56,145 nt of DNA from sequence record PZ386950.1; one strand, written 5' to 3'. Made by a program: the position numbers and the translations under genes. Origin of the DNA: a phage. Of this stretch, positions 11,462-56,145 are shown piece by piece (positions within the stretch are counted from its first letter, which is position 1; every line of letters begins with the position of its first letter). A model generated the notes under the pieces. The model ran no database searches. It was not told the origin of the DNA and saw only the letters and a program-made list of their open reading frames with translations.

Positions 11462-11489
11462 CAGCGACCCATTGTCGCTTCCTGTAATA

Positions 11490-11530
11490 AAGATATCCTA
11501 CCGTCTGTAATCCGTCAAGAATTATTTTAA
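11490..11530 (-). promoter_or_regulatory. sigma70-type promoter with UP element (copy 4)
   Basis: minus-strand TTAAAATAATTCTTGACGGATTACA plus 17 bp and TATCTT. Confidence 0.6.
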
Positions 11531-11619
11531 AGATACAGTTAATACAGAACGTGTACTAACTGTACATGGTTTTACATAGGTTTCATGATTTTGAGTTGCA
11601 GCTAATACTGAATCTGTAT

Positions 11620-11760
11620 TAGTAGATCATAGATTCATAGATCGCGTCATGTTTATTTTTGACCAACCCATCTCTATCTTATTCTTTTTATTATCTTTTT
11701 ATAGAAAACATAGAAAACATAGATAAATAGAAGAGTAGTATAAGTAGTAAAAGTTGCTGC
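11620..11760. repeat. AT-rich element copy A (about 90 percent identical to 50985-51125)
   Basis: cgtcatgtttatttttgaccaacccatctctatcttattctttttattatctttttatagaaaacatagaaaacatagata matches second copy nearly base for base. Confidence 0.8.
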
Positions 11761-11816
11761 AAGTAGGAGAGGTTTAAAAGGTATAGAGAGTCGCATACTT
11801 CCCATGAATCTATACG

Positions 11817-11856
11817 TAAAATAATTCTTGACGAATTACACCGACACAACTACTCT
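11817..11856 (+). promoter_or_regulatory. sigma70-type promoter with UP element (copy 5, plus strand)
   Basis: AAAATAATTCTTGACGAATTACA plus 17 bp and TACTCT. Confidence 0.55.
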
Positions 11857-11886
11857 GTGGTTAAGAAAACAAGAAGGGTTGAATGT

Positions 11887-40871: not shown

Positions 40872-43226
40872 ATGAAAGGGTTACTGAACCGTAAACAGTG
40901 GGTCATGTGGCGGCTTGAGACAGTCGCCGATCGTCCAAAACCAACGAAAGTACCATACAGTCCGGTACACGGTTACAAAGCCAGTACCACTAATCCTAAC
41001 GACTGGTCTGACTATCACACCGCGTTAGGTATGGCGCAAATGTACGGCATGTCTGGTGTTGGTTTTGTATTCACAGAAAACGACCCTTATTTCTTTATTG
41101 ATGTCGATAACTGTCTGGTAGATCAGGCAACAGCTACGTGGTCACCACTGGCGCATGAATTCGTAAACCGTTTTCCAAATGCTTACACTGAAGTCAGTCA
41201 GTCAGGAACAGGTTTGCATATAATCTGTGCTTATACCAGCATACCGGAAGGTTTTAACAGTCTGAACGACCAGAAAACCGGGCTGGAAATGTACTGGCGT
41301 GATCGTTTCGTCGCGATGACGCTCACGGGTAATGGTGATGTTGATATTGATTATACCCAGGGTATTCATGATTCTATTGCCCGGTATGGTCGCATCCGTT
41401 CAGACCGTTCCGCACGCTGGACAACAGCACCCTGTGATGACTGGTCAGGCCCGGCAGACGATGATGAACTGATTAAAATGGCGTTAAATTCGTCCAGTGC
41501 TGCTTCAGTATTTGGTAATAAAGCGTCATTTGCGGATCTGTGGAATGCAAACGTTGAACGCCTGTCTGTGTCATATCCCAGCGACCAGGGAAAAGACTAC
41601 AATGCATCTGCCGCTGATGCTGCCCTGTGCTCACACCTTGCTTTCTGGACCGGGAAAGATTGCGAACGTATTGAACGTCTATTTAACCGTTCCGGGCTGG
41701 TTCGTGGTAAATGGACAGACCGTCAGGATTACCGTGAGAATACGATTCTGGGCGCTGTGGAACGTTGCGATACTGTTTATCGTAGTCAACCGACGCTGAC
41801 ACCAGAACTGATGAAAGCAGTCACACCAGCGCCTACCATCGTTCCTAACGGTGGAACACCTGCGTACATGAGTGTGAAACCCGGTGAAGGTGCATATGGT
41901 TCAAACCACACGGTTAACGCATCCACTTTCGTTAATAACTATTATCCGAACAACACATTGATTTTCGTCCAGCAACAACCATACCGGTTCAACGGTCGCG
42001 TGTGGGAACGTGTCAGTGAAGATGAACTGAAACATCAAATTTCTATGGCAATGCTCGCCAGCGAACCAAAAGCTGACGTGATTAATGGTACGTACAAGGT
42101 TTTGTCGTATTTATTCACACGGGCTGATCGTGAGCTTGGAACATGGCCCGGCGTTGATGTATCACACTATATTGTTTGTCAGAACGGGATACTGGATGTA
42201 CACACGGGTAAATGTGATGCACATAACCCTGATTTCTTTACGACCAGTATTTTACCGTATAGCTACGATCCATTTGCTCGTGCACCAGCGTTTGAACAGT
42301 TTTTAAATACAACTCTGGAAGGTGATCAGGAACGTATTGCATTGTTGCAGGAATGGCTGGGTTACATGCTTGTCAACTCGTATGACTATCAGAAAGCGAT
42401 GCTGTTGATTGGTGCACCACGTTCCGGTAAAGGTACGATTGGTCGCATCATTCAGGCACTGGTAGGTGATGAAGCGTATGCAGGGATCACACTGGAGGGT
42501 TTAGCAAGTGATGCGGTACTTGAAACTGTGCTGGATAAATCTGTGCTATTTATCGGTGATGCTCACAGTGTGTCCGGGCCTGATCGCAACCGAATTCTGG
42601 ACCGTTTCAAATCTATTACAGGTTGTGATGCGATTCCGGTTAATCGTAAATATAAAGGTGCATGGAACGGTCGTTTACCGGGACGTATGACACTGGCTGC
42701 TAACAACATACCTGCATTTGCTGATGATTCCGGTGCAATGGCTAACCGTTTGCTGATCCTACCATTCAACATTTCGTTCCTGGGTCGTGAAGATACCACT
42801 CTGGAAGCACGACTGATGAAAGAACTACCGGGGATCTGTAACTGGGCGATTGAAGGTTTACAACGGTTACGTGCAAACGGACGGTTTACTGAACCAAAAG
42901 CAAGTCTGGAAGAACGTCAGGAAATTATGGATCAACAATCACCACTTAGAAGTTTTATCAGAGATTGTTGCGAATTGGTATCTGATGGTGAGGTGCACAC
43001 TGAAGAACTCTATGGTCGTTATCGTCTCTGGAAAACACAGGAAGGTGGTCCAGCAATGACTAAAACTGCATTTAGTCGGGCGTTTAAATCCACCCTTCGT
43101 GGTAAAGTGAAAAAAGACGTTGTTAATATAAATAACGTTCGACTAAACGGTTTCAGGGGTATTCGTCTTCTCCCTTTTCAGTCAACAGCTAATGTAGTGC
43201 CTTTCCCACCTGCGAGTAACGGTTAG
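40872..43226 (+). CDS. primase-helicase (primase-polymerase N-terminal domain plus P4/D5-type SF3 helicase)
   Basis: N-terminal SQSGTGLHIIC, C-terminal Walker A GAPRSGKGT. Confidence 0.8.
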   Translation: MKGLLNRKQWVMWRLETVADRPKPTKVPYSPVHGYKASTTNPNDWSDYHTALGMAQMYGMSGVGFVFTENDPYFFIDVDNCLVDQATATWSPLAHEFVNRFPNAYTEVSQSGTGLHIICAYTSIPEGFNSLNDQKTGLEMYWRDRFVAMTLTGNGDVDIDYTQGIHDSIARYGRIRSDRSARWTTAPCDDWSGPADDDELIKMALNSSSAASVFGNKASFADLWNANVERLSVSYPSDQGKDYNASAADAALCSHLAFWTGKDCERIERLFNRSGLVRGKWTDRQDYRENTILGAVERCDTVYRSQPTLTPELMKAVTPAPTIVPNGGTPAYMSVKPGEGAYGSNHTVNASTFVNNYYPNNTLIFVQQQPYRFNGRVWERVSEDELKHQISMAMLASEPKADVINGTYKVLSYLFTRADRELGTWPGVDVSHYIVCQNGILDVHTGKCDAHNPDFFTTSILPYSYDPFARAPAFEQFLNTTLEGDQERIALLQEWLGYMLVNSYDYQKAMLLIGAPRSGKGTIGRIIQALVGDEAYAGITLEGLASDAVLETVLDKSVLFIGDAHSVSGPDRNRILDRFKSITGCDAIPVNRKYKGAWNGRLPGRMTLAANNIPAFADDSGAMANRLLILPFNISFLGREDTTLEARLMKELPGICNWAIEGLQRLRANGRFTEPKASLEERQEIMDQQSPLRSFIRDCCELVSDGEVHTEELYGRYRLWKTQEGGPAMTKTAFSRAFKSTLRGKVKKDVVNINNVRLNGFRGIRLLPFQSTANVVPFPPASNG

Positions 43227-49936: not shown

Positions 49937-49966
49937 CAAAAAGCGGGGATAATTACCCCGCTATCT

Positions 49967-50764
49967 TTATTGACCCATCATATCTTTATACATCATCAAA
50001 ACAATATCATCCGGCATATTGTCTACATCACAATGTGGGTTGTGTGATAACGCATACAGTCTGATTTTCTCCTTCAAATCGCTGACATCGACTACAGGTG
50101 CTTCCACTCGTGTTACAGGTGCTTCCACTCGTGTTACAGGTGGAAGCACTCGTGTTACAGGTGGTTCCACTCGTGCTACAGGTGCTTCCACTCGTGCTAC
50201 AGGTGCTTCACAAACCATCACATTAAACGGTGTACCGGTGCCTTCGTATTTTTCAAGCAAATCGACCATTACGTTTACACATTCCGGGATCCATCCCCGG
50301 CGCAAACCATTCTGAATCCAACTGTCAGTAATTGTGTGTTCGTTTAAATTCCTGCGTAGCACATATCTTGCACATTCAAAATTACCGCACATCGCCTCAA
50401 ACCGTGTCCACACGTCGTGACCGTGAACAGCTTCCAGGATCTGTGAATCAACGTATCTGACACGTTGCCAGTAGTTATTAGCAAAACGCCTGTGTGGTAA
50501 TTTCTGACGCAGTTCGGTAACCGGTATTGTGTGTTTAAGAACAATGTTTTCGTCAGAATGTTGTACTGACGAAGGTGACAGTGTGAAGTCAGTAATCTCT
50601 TCAAGAATAATACTGATCGTTTCATATTTAGGATGAAACCTACCGCTTAACCATTGGTTGTAACGACCAATGGTTACCTTAACACCTCGACGATTAAGGT
50701 ATTCAACAGCATTTTGTACCCCGCCTTTTAAATCTATCAATTCGTCTAAAAGGTTCTTTTTCAT
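49967..50764 (-). CDS. hypothetical protein with EAPVARV tandem repeats
   Basis: ATG 50764 with perfect RBS AAGGAGG; divergent from terS across the iteron region. Confidence 0.55.
   Translation of the reverse strand: MKKNLLDELIDLKGGVQNAVEYLNRRGVKVTIGRYNQWLSGRFHPKYETISIILEEITDFTLSPSSVQHSDENIVLKHTIPVTELRQKLPHRRFANNYWQRVRYVDSQILEAVHGHDVWTRFEAMCGNFECARYVLRRNLNEHTITDSWIQNGLRRGWIPECVNVMVDLLEKYEGTGTPFNVMVCEAPVARVEAPVARVEPPVTRVLPPVTRVEAPVTRVEAPVVDVSDLKEKIRLYALSHNPHCDVDNMPDDIVLMMYKDMMGQ
50092..50212 (-). repeat. 21-bp coding tandem repeat (about 6 copies)
   Basis: acaggtgcttccactcgtgtt repeated with point variants. Confidence 0.85.
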
Positions 50765-50809
50765 TATCACCCCTCCTTATTTGACCACGGATAAATCATA
50801 ACGCGCGTT

Positions 50810-50980
50810 AGCAGCTAGTGCAAGACGTGCTTTATATGTTAGTGTATTTACACTTAGTGCATGTTGTGCTTTAGCAGTTAGTGCAAGATGCACGTTGTGT
50901 ATTAGCTGTTAGTGCACGTTGTGTATCTATGTTGGTACAGCTAATGCACGTTGTGAATTATATAGTGCATGTTGTGCATT
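50810..50980. repeat. iteron array TTAGTGCAYGTTGTG (about 6 copies)
   Basis: ctagtgcaagacgtgc, ttagtgcatgttgtgc, ttagtgcaagatgcacgttgtg, ttagtgcacgttgtg, ctaatgcacgttgtg, tagtgcatgttgtgc. Confidence 0.8.
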
Positions 50981-50984
50981 AAAG

Positions 50985-51125
50985 TTATACTTAACATAGA
51001 TTTCGTCATGTTTACTTTTTAACCAACCCCTCTCTATCTTATTCTTTTTATTATCTTTTTATAGATAACATAGAAAACATAGATATAAATAAGAAGTAGT
51101 ATAGAAAAATAGAGATAGTGCATAT
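50985..51125. repeat. AT-rich element copy B
   Basis: near-identical to 11620-11760; followed by further iteron copies at 51117-51310. Confidence 0.8.
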
Positions 51126-51374
51126 AGTGTATTAGCTGTAAATAGAGCTAAAATAAAAGTCTGGGAGATACCTATTGTAATCTATGTTTTTATGCAAGTC
51201 TTTGAAATTATTGTGATTATTGGATACGTATTTATGTATGTGATCGAAAATTAGTGCATGTTGTGCACTAACTGTAAACTTAATACTAACGTTGTATTAG
51301 CTGTAAAACAGGGCGTGTGGACAACCCGTGGGTATCTGTGGGAAACTAATTTAAAATTTATGGGAGACAAATTT

Positions 51375-52010
51375 ATGAAAATTTCAGACCGGGCTAAAAG
51401 GGCTGCTCTGGAGTTAACAACCGATCAACTCCGTTTCGCTAACCTGTGGTTAGATCGTGTCAATAACGGCTTCAGCAACGCTCAGTGCGTCTTACACGCT
51501 TATCCGGGACATAAAGACCCTGACGCAGCTAAAGTCACCGCACATCGCCTCCTGTCGAATACGAAGGTGTTGAACTATCTGGACGCGATGGGAAGTCATG
51601 CGCTTGAGTCTGTCGGGGAATCGTTAACGAGTCGTGTCGAGTGGTGGAAACGAGCGGCAAGTACGGCTGAAGAATTACTGGAACCGTATTGTCAACGTGT
51701 CATCGTTCCTGGCGAAGACGACACAGAAGCGAAACACCTGTGGGTGAACAGTACCGGCGATATCCCCAGCCATCTGCAACAGTACGTAGTTTGCTACAAA
51801 CGTTACATGCTGGGTGGATACATTCTGGTGACACGTGAACTGTTCGATCCGAAAACTCGTGCAAAAGCGTCTGAACAACTGGATAAGATCACCGGGAACA
51901 GTATCGACCGTGTGGAATTGTCTGGCGTGGTTGGTAACGTGGTTCAGAGTGTTCCTGAAGGTGCAACTATCGACGACATCGCGCAATTGTATCAGAAGGC
52001 GCTTAAATAA
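51375..52010 (+). CDS. terS: terminase small subunit
   Basis: trimmed to ATG 51375 (RBS GGGAGA); N-terminal HTH-like region FANLWLDRVNNGFSNAQCVLHAY resembles small-terminase DNA-binding domains. Confidence 0.65.
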   Translation: MKISDRAKRAALELTTDQLRFANLWLDRVNNGFSNAQCVLHAYPGHKDPDAAKVTAHRLLSNTKVLNYLDAMGSHALESVGESLTSRVEWWKRAASTAEELLEPYCQRVIVPGEDDTEAKHLWVNSTGDIPSHLQQYVVCYKRYMLGGYILVTRELFDPKTRAKASEQLDKITGNSIDRVELSGVVGNVVQSVPEGATIDDIAQLYQKALK

Positions 52011-52856: not shown

Positions 52857-53767
52857 CGTTTAGTCTCCCCACCCAAAGCCGTGATAAGTTGTTTAATCAG
52901 CGCCTGAAGTTCACCTGTCATTAGTACAAAATCAGCGTCGAATCGTGCCAGACTGTCTTCGCAGTCAATATCGTCGTTCTGGTCGAGCAACCCATCACAG
53001 AACTTCACACGGTTTAACGTCATGTTGTAAGTTAGCGTAAACGTTACCCGTTGCTGCCAGTCCATCGCCAGCTTTGTAACGATTTTCCCGGCTTCAATAT
53101 GCGTGGCTATTTCATCACTGGTTAAATCCTGTTTTTTAACGCGTGCAACACCGCCATCAGTCAGGTTTGCTTTCAGTTCAGCAGAATCACCCATTGTGAA
53201 ACCTGTTGGCGCGTTTCCTGAACGTACCCACTCCGTCATCGTCAGTTCAACAGGGTTTTCCATCGTCAGCGGGACGACTGGCAGACTACCCAGGGGTTTA
53301 CGCAACAGTGCTAATGCGTCTTCAGCCCGTTTAGCACTGGACGCATCAACCACGATTAATCCGTTAGTAATATCAATCCACAACTGTGTACGACTGTTTT
53401 TAACAAATGCTCGTGGTAACAGACTATGCAACACTTCATCTTTCAGTGCGTCTTTCTCTGTTTTCTTCAGCTTACGTGCCTGTTCCGCTTCCAGTTTGAC
53501 GATTCGCGCGTTCAGATGCTGTTTAATGACCGGACCCGGAATAATCTTTTCCTGTTTCTGGATGGTCAGCAAATATTGCCCGTTAGCCTGGTGAACCAGC
53601 GTATGATGTTGTTCAGTTGCCGGAACCCACCCAGTACGCGCCATATCCTGTGAACCACATGGGGTAAACTGAAATGCACACAGGCTGTCTTCCAACGTTG
53701 GTAAATGGGCCATTAATTGCATCGGGTTAGTCAGACGATAAATGATTGCGTTTTTAAAGAAGTTCAT
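52853..53767 (-). CDS. rdgC: recombination-associated protein RdgC
   Basis: [16 protein letters not shown] ... [38 protein letters not shown] near-identical in pattern to E. coli RdgC. Confidence 0.8.
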
Positions 53768-53961
53768 AGTTCAATGTCCTGTGGTTTGATAGTAACTTTT
53801 CCGTCAAGAACAACAGTGTTTACACCACTTAGTTTTTGTTCTTCGTATAAATCAAGTTCAACATTAATTCCGACGATTGAGGCTTCGTGTATCGCACAGT
53901 TTAACTGTTTAATGAGGTCTGAAATTCTACGCTGATAATCTTGTGCTTCTGATAGTTTCAT
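53764..53961 (-). CDS. hypothetical small protein
   Basis: 65-aa ORF. Confidence 0.4.
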
Positions 53962-54109
53962 TTCCTGTTCCTTCTTTTCTTCGCCTCGCGTCTGGCTTTT
54001 GCAATACCTGTTTTACGATGTGGTTGTTTACGGTCAGTAATAATTCCGTATGGTGGGATATCCCACAAAGTGTTAGCGGAACCTAATAATTTAATCATGT
54101 AATCTAAGA

Positions 54110-54403
54110 TCATACGTTCACCACTCTTAAATCGGGTGTCAGGCTACGATGGTCATGATGACCGTTCATAGTAAATGAGAAAGTGTAATCGCACTGCTTA
54201 CCGTCGAACGTGAAGGGGATTTGAAACCCTGTATCGTCAACGATGCGAACTTTAACCGGGTATTCAGCTTGCGGATCGACTGCTACAACAGTGCCGAACG
54301 GTTTAGATTTGCGACGTGCGAGAATTTCTAACAGTCGTGGATTGGTGATTTCTACGTATTGACCAGTTTTAAACATGGCGATAACTCCAGTTGTTTTACA
54401 CAA
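54110..54403 (-). CDS. hypothetical protein
   Basis: 97-aa ORF downstream of promoter copy 10. Confidence 0.45.
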   Translation of the reverse strand: MCKTTGVIAMFKTGQYVEITNPRLLEILARRKSKPFGTVVAVDPQAEYPVKVRIVDDTGFQIPFTFDGKQCDYTFSFTMNGHHDHRSLTPDLRVVNV

Positions 54404-56082: not shown

Positions 56083-56145
56083 TCTCTGTCACCACCAATC
56101 ACCCGTGGTAAACTGTATAGAACAGTTACAAACGGGCCGATAACC

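What the first reader, a model, noticed from the sequence alone, without database searches (positions are those of the whole stretch)
50771..51374. Iteron-rich AT-rich region between divergent genes, immediately upstream of terS
About 600 bp of noncoding DNA carries at least 8 copies of TTAGTGCAYGTTGTG, 3 copies of GTATTAGCTGTAAA, and a 115-bp AT-rich core with aacatagaaaacataga direct repeats. This layout is typical of replication origins (iterons plus an unwinding element) or of a pac/cos recognition region next to the small terminase gene.
Basis: seen in the sequence. Interest (0 to 1): 0.65.

Follow-up and report, generated by a model that had tools for sequence, protein, structure and literature searches.

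The report
Repeat array read by neighbouring HTH protein
The 600-bp gap upstream of the small-terminase gene of this 9NA/Sasha-like phage holds nine binding sites for the protein encoded next door, arranged around the most AT-rich DNA of the genome; this looks like a replication origin or control hub, and the repeats are not terminase recognition sites.

Summary
The window is a complete Sashavirus/9NA-like genome, 96% identical here to E. coli phage KarinMuster Bas82.

Nine copies lie in 50812-51303: six left of a 120-bp core, one just right of it, and two near terS. That core is the most AT-rich DNA in the genome (19% GC). The only other copies in 56 kb are two in a second divergent intergenic region (11462-11886), which also carries a 93%-identical copy of 91 bp of the core.

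Comparison with relatives identifies the protein that reads the repeats. They change together with the N-terminal 60-70 residues of the divergent neighbour (49967-50764, 9NA gp84 family), which fold like an XRE/Cro helix-turn-helix. In Sashavirus BDX09P1 only that domain, the left-arm repeats and the single site right of the core are replaced. TerS stays 99% identical there, and across relatives its N-terminal domain does not track the repeats.

Best reading (not proven): an initiator-bound array beside an unwinding element, like lambda O and its origin, with autoregulation. The main rival is pure transcriptional control. The repeats are not a TerS/pac signal. Whether the pac cut lies in the conserved parts of the region could not be tested.

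The parts
49967..50764 (-). Gene for the 265-aa 9NA gp84-family protein, the inferred reader of the repeats. It has an N-terminal helix-turn-helix domain, a conserved central region, a Pro-rich heptad linker and a conserved C-terminal tail.
   Evidence: It matches phrog_25538 (function unknown) and no Pfam family. It is 41% identical to 9NA gp84. The family is tiny: 12 hits among 1.84 billion representative proteins.
50579..50764 (-). Codons 1-62: the XRE/Cro-type helix-turn-helix domain that sets specificity.
50545..50995 (.). Mosaic cassette: the N-terminal ~73 codons plus the left-arm repeats. This stretch is unalignable with Sashavirus BDX09P1, while the flanks are near-identical.
   Evidence: Pairwise alignment; protein alignment.
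50093..50209 (-). A 21-bp tandem repeat (5.6 copies) encoding the PVTRVEA heptad linker. Copy number varies among relatives.
   Evidence: the Sasha record annotates a 282-bp 'direct tandem repeat region' here.
50795..50823 (-). Candidate sigma-70 promoter of the gp84-family gene: -35 TTGCAC at 50823-50818, 17-bp spacer, -10 TATGAT at 50800-50795. The -35 lies inside the first dyad site.
   Evidence: Read from the sequence. It matches 8 of 12 positions, below the scan tool's threshold, so it is inferred only.
50812..50985 (+). Left arm: six 27-bp dyad sites at 50812-838, 50851-877, 50882-908, 50906-932, 50938-964 and 50959-985. All have their better-conserved half on the same side. Centre-to-centre spacings are 39, 31, 24, 32 and 21 bp.
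50995..51115 (.). AT-rich core with the lowest GC in the genome. It contains the 9-bp tandem ATAGAAAAC (51061-51083), and two plus-strand CATAGAT motifs lie inside it (two inverted copies lie in the flanking arms). The stretch 50995-51085 is duplicated at 11636-11725 (93% identical).
51112..51138 (+). Single dyad site on the far side of the core. It is the only patch of the right arm replaced in BDX09P1, where the patch instead fits BDX09P1's own repeat.
   Evidence: 11 of the 33 differences in the 350-bp right arm fall in these 23 bp (Fisher p = 6e-7). The BDX motif TAATMCT-N4-TAG occurs 6 times in its intergenic region, including this patch, and nowhere else in the DNA examined.
51248..51303 (+). 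Two terS-proximal dyad sites. 51248-51274 contains the perfect palindrome TTAGTGCA-TGTTG-TGCACTAA; the second is 51277-51303. Neither is replaced in BDX09P1.
   Evidence: The Sasha record annotates the palindrome as a minus-strand terminator.
51316..51347 (+). Block conserved in every lineage just upstream of the terS ribosome-binding site (GTGGACAACCCGTGGGTATCTGTGGGAAACT). Its function is unknown; it could be a terS promoter, a leader, or a possible pac element.
   Evidence: Comparison of the intergenic regions.
51375..52010 (+). terS (211 aa), a lone plus-strand gene followed by a convergent minus-strand block.
   Evidence: It matches phrog_51 at 7.5e-12 and Pfam Terminase_2 weakly. It is 87% identical to 9NA gp1.
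11462..11886 (.). Second, related intergenic region upstream of the head operon. It holds two dyad sites (11536-562, 11599-625), the duplicated core (11636-11725) and divergent early promoters (11509-528 minus strand, 11818-837 plus strand).
   Evidence: It is conserved in all lineages.

Best explanation
The region is an assembly site for the protein encoded by the divergent neighbour gene (9NA gp84 family).

Supported by comparison. Its N-terminal XRE/Cro-type helix-turn-helix domain, probably acting as a dimer, reads a 27-bp dyad unit. Six units lie in tandem next to the gene, one lies across the AT-rich core, and two lie near terS.

Inferred. The first unit covers the gene's own -35, which would give autoregulation. 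The loaded array sits between divergent transcription units and helps open the 120-bp, 19%-GC core. The conserved C-terminal part of the protein, tethered by a flexible Pro-rich linker, then recruits the phage's NrS-1-like SF3 primase-polymerase/helicase. This would make the region the phage's replication origin, comparable to lambda O and ori-lambda. The second region at 11.5 kb would act as an auxiliary or secondary site. The terS-proximal sites may also couple terS expression to this protein.
For: Clustering. All 11 sites at or above the dyad-model cut-off (>=12 of 14 positions) lie in the two intergenic regions, and every weight-matrix score above 19 bits falls on one of them.

Co-variation with the neighbour protein. 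BDX09P1 differs from this phage only in the N-terminal ~73 codons, the left-arm repeats and the single site right of the core. Sasha has a 98%-identical N-domain and identical repeats. 9NA, the metagenomic lineages L016 and L018, and the Klebsiella phages each have a diverged N-domain and their own repeat family, in the same layout.

Fold. The N-domain model (pLDDT 91) matches almost only XRE/Cro HTH domains, which bind dyad operators.

Unwinding element. The two cores are the two lowest-GC 100-bp windows of the genome, and they sit between divergent transcription units.

Genome context. The phage encodes its own replisome: an SF3 prim-pol/helicase, an SNF2-type helicase and an Enc34-type SSB. 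No initiator is annotated.

Parallels from established knowledge. A variable N-terminal specificity domain joined to a conserved C-terminal part is the pattern of lambdoid O proteins. A second cis site resembles P4 ori/crr and SPP1 oriL/oriR.
Against: There is no direct evidence of origin activity.

XRE-type HTH domains are typical of transcription regulators, not of known phage initiators. The protein has no similarity to lambda O, DnaD-type or Rep families.

The C-terminal part is modelled poorly and matches nothing.

A GC3-skew breakpoint analysis gave nothing. There are no DnaA or IHF boxes.

Both regions lie directly upstream of late genes, which also fits a regulatory role.

In Sasha the two sites of the second region do not fit Sasha's own gp84-type protein. 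In BDX09P1 they share only the TAATAC half-site with that phage's repeat. Binding at the second region is therefore not essential.
Confidence: 0.42

Rival explanations
1. Transcriptional control region only. The gp84-family protein is a Cro- or controller-protein-like regulator. It represses its own promoter and times terS and the promoters of the second region. The AT-rich core is curved or UP-like spacer DNA between divergent promoters.
For: The domain has an XRE/Cro fold. The sites are dyad operators, and one overlaps the predicted -35; in 9NA one overlaps the ribosome-binding site. Sites lie next to terS, and in the second region they are centred about 67 and 130 bp upstream of the inferred start of an early promoter. 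Both regions precede late genes. A -10-like TATGAT/TATGTT with no -35 is conserved 75-100 bp right of the core.
Against: Six to seven sites packed against the lowest-GC DNA of the genome is more than autoregulation needs. Other late blocks (terL, portal) have no such sites. Sasha carries sites in the second region that its own protein cannot be expected to read, and BDX09P1's fit its repeat only at one half-site. The protein is therefore not an essential activator of the head operon. The roughly 200-residue conserved C-terminal part with its tethered tail is left unexplained.
Confidence: 0.3
2. Packaging (pac) recognition region. TerS binds repeats here and the headful series starts here.
For: The region is directly upstream of terS in every relative, including distant ones with 31-34% TerS identity that also keep a 0.8-1.1 kb repeat-rich gap. 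9NA packages by pac-directed headful packaging (PMC4153490). From my recollection of the abstract of Zeng et al. 2019, which I could not read here, initiation cuts are spread over about 170 bp. Conserved elements exist here that a conserved TerS could read: CATAGAT motifs, and the block at 51316-51347.
Against: The lineage-specific repeats do not follow TerS. The conserved core and the CATAGAT motifs also occur in the second region, yet 9NA shows a single pac fragment (PMC4153490). No cleavage data could be obtained here.
Confidence: 0.15
3. Non-functional repeats: recombination scars or a decaying mobile element.
For: None specific. The region is mosaic.
Against: The same layout is kept in at least six diverged lineages with different repeat sequences. 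The single site right of the core changed in step with the protein domain.
Confidence: 0.02

Closest known systems
Lambda ori / O protein (and other lambdoid O-ori pairs)
   Same: There are several ~19-bp dyad-symmetric initiator sites in tandem beside an AT-rich region. The protein has a type-specific N-terminal DNA-binding part and a conserved C-terminal part, and relatives exchange the N-part together with the sites.
   Different: There is no sequence or fold relationship: an XRE HTH here versus the winged-helix Phage_rep_O domain. The sites lie upstream of the gene, not inside it. There are more sites (9), placed on both sides of the AT-rich DNA. The partner would be an SF3 prim-pol/helicase, not P/DnaB. 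Origin activity is untested.
P4 ori/crr and SPP1 oriL/oriR (two separated cis regions bound by one initiator)
   Same: A second locus about 17 kb away around the circular map carries the same site type and a copy of the AT-rich core. The phage has a P4-alpha-like prim-pol/SF3 helicase.
   Different: Here the site-binding protein is separate from the helicase-primase. In Sasha the second locus carries sites of another type, and in BDX09P1 they fit only in part, so it cannot be strictly required.
Papillomavirus E2/E1 origin
   Same: A dimeric sequence-specific protein with a flexible hinge binds palindromes flanking an AT-rich origin and would load an SF3 helicase. E2 also regulates transcription.
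   Different: The proteins are unrelated and the comparison is only an analogy. No interaction has been shown.
Cro/CI and restriction-modification controller (C-protein) operator arrays
   Same: XRE-type HTH domain, dyad operators, and a site over the gene's own promoter.
   Different: This is a virulent phage. There are far more sites, a large extra C-terminal region, and an association with the genome's most AT-rich DNA.
SPP1 pacL/pacC/pacR and P1 pac
   Same: A repeat-flanked region at the 5' side of terS in a headful-packaging phage.
   Different: The repeats here track another protein, not TerS. No cleavage data are available.

Membership tests
Initiator-bound iteron origin (lambda ori type) | A cluster of repeated initiator-binding sites | tested here: met
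   Nine 27-bp dyad units lie in 600 bp, and none occur outside the two related regions.
Initiator-bound iteron origin (lambda ori type) | An adjacent AT-rich unwinding element | tested here: met
   The lowest-GC 100-bp window of the genome (19%) lies between the sites. Unwinding itself was not tested.
Initiator-bound iteron origin (lambda ori type) | A cognate protein encoded nearby whose DNA-binding domain matches the sites | tested here: met
   The N-domain and the sites are swapped as one cassette in BDX09P1, and they co-vary across six lineages. Binding is inferred, not measured.
Initiator-bound iteron origin (lambda ori type) | Homology of the protein to known initiators (Phage_rep_O, DnaD-like, Rep_3, etc.) | tested here: not met
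   There are no significant Pfam or PDB sequence hits. Only the XRE HTH fold is recognisable.
Initiator-bound iteron origin (lambda ori type) | Replication starts here | not testable with these tools
   The GC3-skew analysis was uninformative.
pac site recognised by TerS | Recognition repeats are conserved, or co-vary, with the TerS DNA-binding domain | tested here: not met
   TerS is 99% identical in BDX09P1, whose repeats are unrelated. TerS 1-70 is 94% identical in Klebsiella VLCpiS10a, which has different repeats, and 81% in Sasha, which has identical repeats.
pac site recognised by TerS | The first headful cut maps to the region | not testable with these tools
   No virion reads were available. 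Zeng et al. 2019 is not held in the library.
XRE/Cro-type repressor with operators | XRE-type helix-turn-helix domain | tested here: inconclusive
XRE/Cro-type repressor with operators | Dyad-symmetric operators that overlap promoter elements | tested here: inconclusive
   Dyad symmetry is clear. The overlap rests on a promoter that is only predicted, at 8 of 12 positions.
Bipartite origins (P4 ori/crr, SPP1 oriL/oriR) | A second cis region with the same binding sites | tested here: inconclusive
   The sites match in this phage, 9NA and the Klebsiella relatives. In Sasha the second region carries another site type, and in BDX09P1 its sites share only a half-site with that phage's repeat.

The most novel reading that the evidence does not exclude
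9NA-like phages would use a previously uncharacterised, modular origin-binding protein. It has a swappable XRE-type specificity domain and a conserved effector part tethered by a variable Pro-rich linker. It would load an NrS-1-like SF3 primase-polymerase/helicase at an AT-rich core that is present twice per genome. Exchange of the domain together with its sites would create replicon specificity types among otherwise near-identical phages. The same hub would gate terS expression, and so packaging.
Probability: 0.3. Interest if true: 0.6.

Novelty: new variant of a known kind. Interest (0 to 1): 0.45.

Why it matters
The biology of 9NA/Sasha-like phages is little studied. Public records annotate nothing in this region except a 'terminator' placed on one palindrome, and the neighbour gene is listed as hypothetical.

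This analysis gives that gene a testable role as the sequence-specific reader of the array. It names its specificity domain and the exact sites, and it points to a natural swap experiment (this phage against BDX09P1).

If the origin reading holds, it would show how replication starts for a phage replisome built around an NrS-1-type prim-pol/helicase, for which no origin-binding protein is annotated in these genomes and none turned up in the papers read here. It would also give a simple marker for specificity types in phages that are being used for biocontrol and in the BASEL collection.

It also warns against reading repeats next to terS as pac sites without checking which protein they follow.

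Tried and rejected
- **Literature on the 9NA pac site.** The key paper (Zeng et al. 2019, J Virol) is not held. The papers that cite it and were read give no coordinates.
- **Start points of public records.** Several records open inside the AT-rich core. The positions differ between records and probably follow the 9NA convention, so I did not use them as evidence for physical ends.
- **Function of the protein from sequence.** Pfam, PHROGs and PDB sequence searches gave nothing significant. A hit to DNA_Packaging_2 covers only 16 residues and is chance-level.
- **Function of the protein from structure.** The full-length model is poor outside residues 1-58. Fold searches match only the N-domain.
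- **A second protein with a similar N-domain.** None was found in this genome or in Sasha that could explain the second region's sites.
- **Orientation-corrected GC3-skew breakpoints.** Not significant; 138 of 200 permutations did as well.
- **Host-factor boxes.** No IHF or DnaA boxes in either region.
- **Known RNA families.** Only chance-level Rfam matches.
- **Concerted evolution of the two cores.** Not supported in Klebsiella phage phi_270, whose two cores use different 9-mers.
- **A late-promoter motif, ACCCGTGGTWAACT.** It is over-represented in loose form, but no clear promoter family emerged.
- **The NrS-1 primase recognition sequence TTTGGTTA (PMC8718748).** A 7-of-8 match lies in the core (51016-51026, minus strand), but it is not statistically notable.

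Full report
**What the window is.** The region matches E. coli phage KarinMuster Bas82 (96% identity over all 604 bp), Salmonella phages Sasha, Sergei and Solent, and other Sashavirus records. The window starts at terL, as the Bas82 record does, and appears to be a whole genome of the 9NA-like siphophage cluster. 9NA is a virulent phage that packages by a pac-directed headful mechanism (PMC4153490). The paper that maps its packaging start (Zeng et al. 2019) is not in the library.

**The observation.** 50771-51374 is non-coding. On its left is a minus-strand gene (49967-50764, 265 aa) that matches only a PHROG of unknown function. On its right is terS (51375-52010). The 15-mer TTAGTGCAYGTTGTG has 3 exact copies here and 3 more with 1-3 mismatches. 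GTATTAGCTGTAAA has 2 exact copies and one with 2 mismatches. The core has the lowest GC content in the genome and carries a 9-bp tandem repeat.

**The real repeat unit.** The two motifs are the two halves of one unit. Aligning all copies gives the 27-bp consensus CAGTTAGTGCA-TGTTG-TGTATTAGCTG, a near-perfect palindrome. One copy, at 51251-51271, is a perfect 8-5-8 palindrome.
- A 19-bp dyad model finds 11 sites in 56 kb: six left of the core, one right of it, two near terS, and two in another intergenic region.
- With a weight matrix, every score above 19 bits falls on one of these 11 sites. The best score elsewhere is 15.9 bits.
- Simulated genomes never gave more than 2 sites in any 604 bp.

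**A second, related region.** 91 bp of the core (50995-51085) recurs at 11636-11725 with 93% identity. That copy sits in a divergent intergenic region (11462-11886) upstream of the protease-scaffold-capsid operon. The region also holds the two extra dyad sites, which are centred about 67 and 130 bp upstream of the inferred start of an early promoter. The two cores are the two lowest-GC windows of the genome. Seven of the eight CATAGAT heptamers in the genome lie in these two regions. The phage's standard early promoter, AAAATAATTCTTGACRGATT, occurs 11 times (0.01 expected), but never in the terS-upstream region.

**Who reads the repeats: the BDX09P1 comparison.** Sashavirus BDX09P1 is near-identical to this phage across the 3' 570 bp of the neighbour gene and across the core and right arm. 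Two stretches differ:
- 50545-50995 is unalignable. This is the N-terminal ~73 codons of the gene plus all left-arm repeats.
- One 23-bp patch is replaced: the site at 51116-51138. It holds 11 of the 33 right-arm differences (p = 6e-7).

BDX09P1 carries its own repeat, TAATMCT-N4-TAG, six times in its intergenic region. One of the six is at that patch, and there are none elsewhere in the DNA examined. At the protein level only residues ~5-75 differ.

**Who reads the repeats: the wider comparison.** 9NA, two metagenomic lineages (L016, L018), FSL SP-062 and the Klebsiella phages each have a diverged N-terminal domain and a repeat family of their own. Examples are GTAACACGTTGTGTTAKACGAAACTA and ACATCTGGTAAGCTGAAAC. 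All of them keep the same layout:
1. a tandem left arm of repeats;
2. an AT-rich core with a 9-bp tandem repeat (ATAGATAGT or ATAGATAAC);
3. one site just beyond the core;
4. a site near terS.

Sasha has a 98%-identical N-domain and identical repeats.

**TerS does not follow the repeats.**
- TerS is 99% identical in BDX09P1.
- TerS residues 1-70 are 94% identical in Klebsiella phage VLCpiS10a, which has different repeats.
- TerS residues 1-70 are only 81% identical in Sasha, which has the same repeats.

The repeats are therefore sites for the neighbour protein's N-terminal domain, not for TerS. Binding is inferred from this pattern and has not been measured.

**The protein.**
- The N-terminal 62 residues model confidently (pLDDT 91) as a four-helix bundle.
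- The W-x-x-G-K-x-x-P motif after the third helix also fits that family (my reading of the alignment).
- The rest of the protein is a conserved ~100-residue region (duplicated in the Klebsiella relatives), a PVTRVEA heptad linker of variable length, and a conserved ~40-residue tail. It models poorly and matches nothing.
- The family is very small: 12 hits among 1.84 billion representative proteins.

**How it most likely works.**
- Supported by comparison: there is a clustered array of dyad sites specific to this protein, on both sides of the genome's most easily melted DNA and between divergent transcription units.
- Inferred, autoregulation: the first site overlaps a plausible -35 for the protein's own gene. 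In 9NA a site covers the ribosome-binding site.
- Inferred, origin function: the loaded array promotes opening of the core, and the conserved C-terminal part recruits the phage replisome.
- The replisome here is an NrS-1-like prim-pol/D5_N/SF3 helicase (40872-43226), an SNF2-type helicase and an Enc34-type SSB. No initiator is annotated.
- The closest functional parallel is lambda O with ori-lambda, including the exchange of the N-terminal specificity part together with its sites. The second locus recalls P4 ori/crr or SPP1 oriL/oriR. These parallels come from established knowledge, not from homology.

**Why this is not settled.**
- XRE HTH domains usually belong to transcription regulators.
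- Both regions precede late genes.
- A -10-like TATGAT/TATGTT with no -35 is conserved 75-100 bp right of each core.
- A purely regulatory role is therefore the main rival.
- Against an essential activator role: Sasha, Sergei and Solent carry sites of another type in the second region (ACATATCTGGTAAGACGAAAC), although their protein is of the present type. BDX09P1's second-region sites share only the TAATAC half-site with its own repeat. No second protein of this kind exists in Sasha. Other late blocks lack such sites.
- No skew signal or host-factor box helps either way.

**Packaging.**
- The repeats are not TerS sites.
- The cut zone could still lie in the conserved parts of this region: the core, the CATAGAT motifs, or the 51316-51347 block.
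- Distant relatives with TerS 31-34% identical (PmiS-Isfahan, Henu15) also keep a large repeat-rich gap upstream of a solitary terS.
- Against this, the conserved core is present twice, while 9NA shows one pac fragment (PMC4153490).
- The question needs read-start or restriction data.

**Verdict.**
Its TerS/pac reading of the repeats is rejected.
- The feature is a new variant of a known kind: a repeat array with a cognate modular DNA-binding protein.
- It is of moderate interest, mainly because it assigns a role and exact sites to an uncharacterised protein family and offers a natural specificity swap to test.

Noticed in passing
window 11462-11886: This second divergent intergenic region carries a 93%-identical copy of 91 bp of the AT-rich core, two dyad sites of the same family, and two divergent copies of the early promoter. 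It is conserved in all 9NA-like lineages. In Sasha/Sergei/Solent its two sites are of a different type from that phage's terS-upstream repeats; in BDX09P1 they match its repeat only at the TAATAC half-site.
   Followed up: partly
window 3783, 6006, 7510, 11509, 11818, 38283, 38346, 43246, 45822, 54428, 56060: There are eleven copies of a 20-bp promoter consensus, AAAATAATTCTTGACRGATT (0.01 expected). They head the minus-strand small-gene blocks and some plus-strand blocks. This is probably the phage's early promoter set.
   Followed up: partly
window 50093-50209: A 21-bp tandem repeat (5.6 copies) inside the gp84-family gene encodes PVTRVEA heptads. Copy number differs among relatives, and Sasha has a 282-bp array. 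It looks like a length-variable flexible linker.
   Followed up: partly
window 51258-51374; Bas82 record 53526-54278: The Bas82 record annotates a 250-aa TerS that starts inside the perfect palindrome. In 9NA the equivalent upstream frame has an in-frame stop 21 nt before the ATG. The Texas A&M Center for Phage Technology (CPT) records Sasha and Solent use the 211-aa start, which has a GGGAG ribosome-binding site. The long form is probably an over-extension.
   Followed up: partly
L008 281-490 (Salmonella phage FSL SP-062): A stand-alone 69-aa ORF sits directly upstream of, and overlaps the start of, that phage's own gp84-family gene. It resembles the 9NA-type N-terminal HTH domain, whereas the full-length gene has a different N-domain. 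It looks like a footprint of N-domain cassette exchange.
   Followed up: no
window, both strands (36 places; exact copy at 56101-56114 upstream of terL): ACCCGTGGTWAACT with up to 3 mismatches is over-represented (36 against 9.8 expected). Good copies lie 20-35 nt upstream of terL here, upstream of the head operon in 9NA and Sasha, and, split by an insertion, upstream of terS. It may be a late-promoter or leader element.
   Followed up: partly
L020 1100-2500 (Proteus phage PmiS-Isfahan); L021 1600-2470 (Morganella phage Henu15): Distant relatives keep a 0.8-1.1 kb repeat-rich, AT-cored gap upstream of terS. The Isfahan gap contains a 21-bp tandem repeat (TAACAGGTGCTTGTGACTGTG x3) and a 74-nt duplication, which suggest an unannotated or disrupted gp84-like gene. 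Henu15's divergent neighbour (194 aa) has a weak N-terminal HTH_3 signal.
   Followed up: partly
window 51016-51026 (minus strand) and 11656-11666 (minus strand): Both cores contain TTGGTTAAAAA or TTGGTCAAAAA. These are 7 of 8 and 6 of 8 matches to TTTGGTTA, a primase recognition sequence of the NrS-1 prim-pol (PMC8718748), whose homologue this phage encodes. The matches are not statistically notable on their own.
   Followed up: partly
window 49937-49966: A GC-rich hairpin (agcggggataattaccccgct) lies between the end of the plus-strand operon and the end of the gp84-family gene. It is likely a bidirectional terminator.
   Followed up: no
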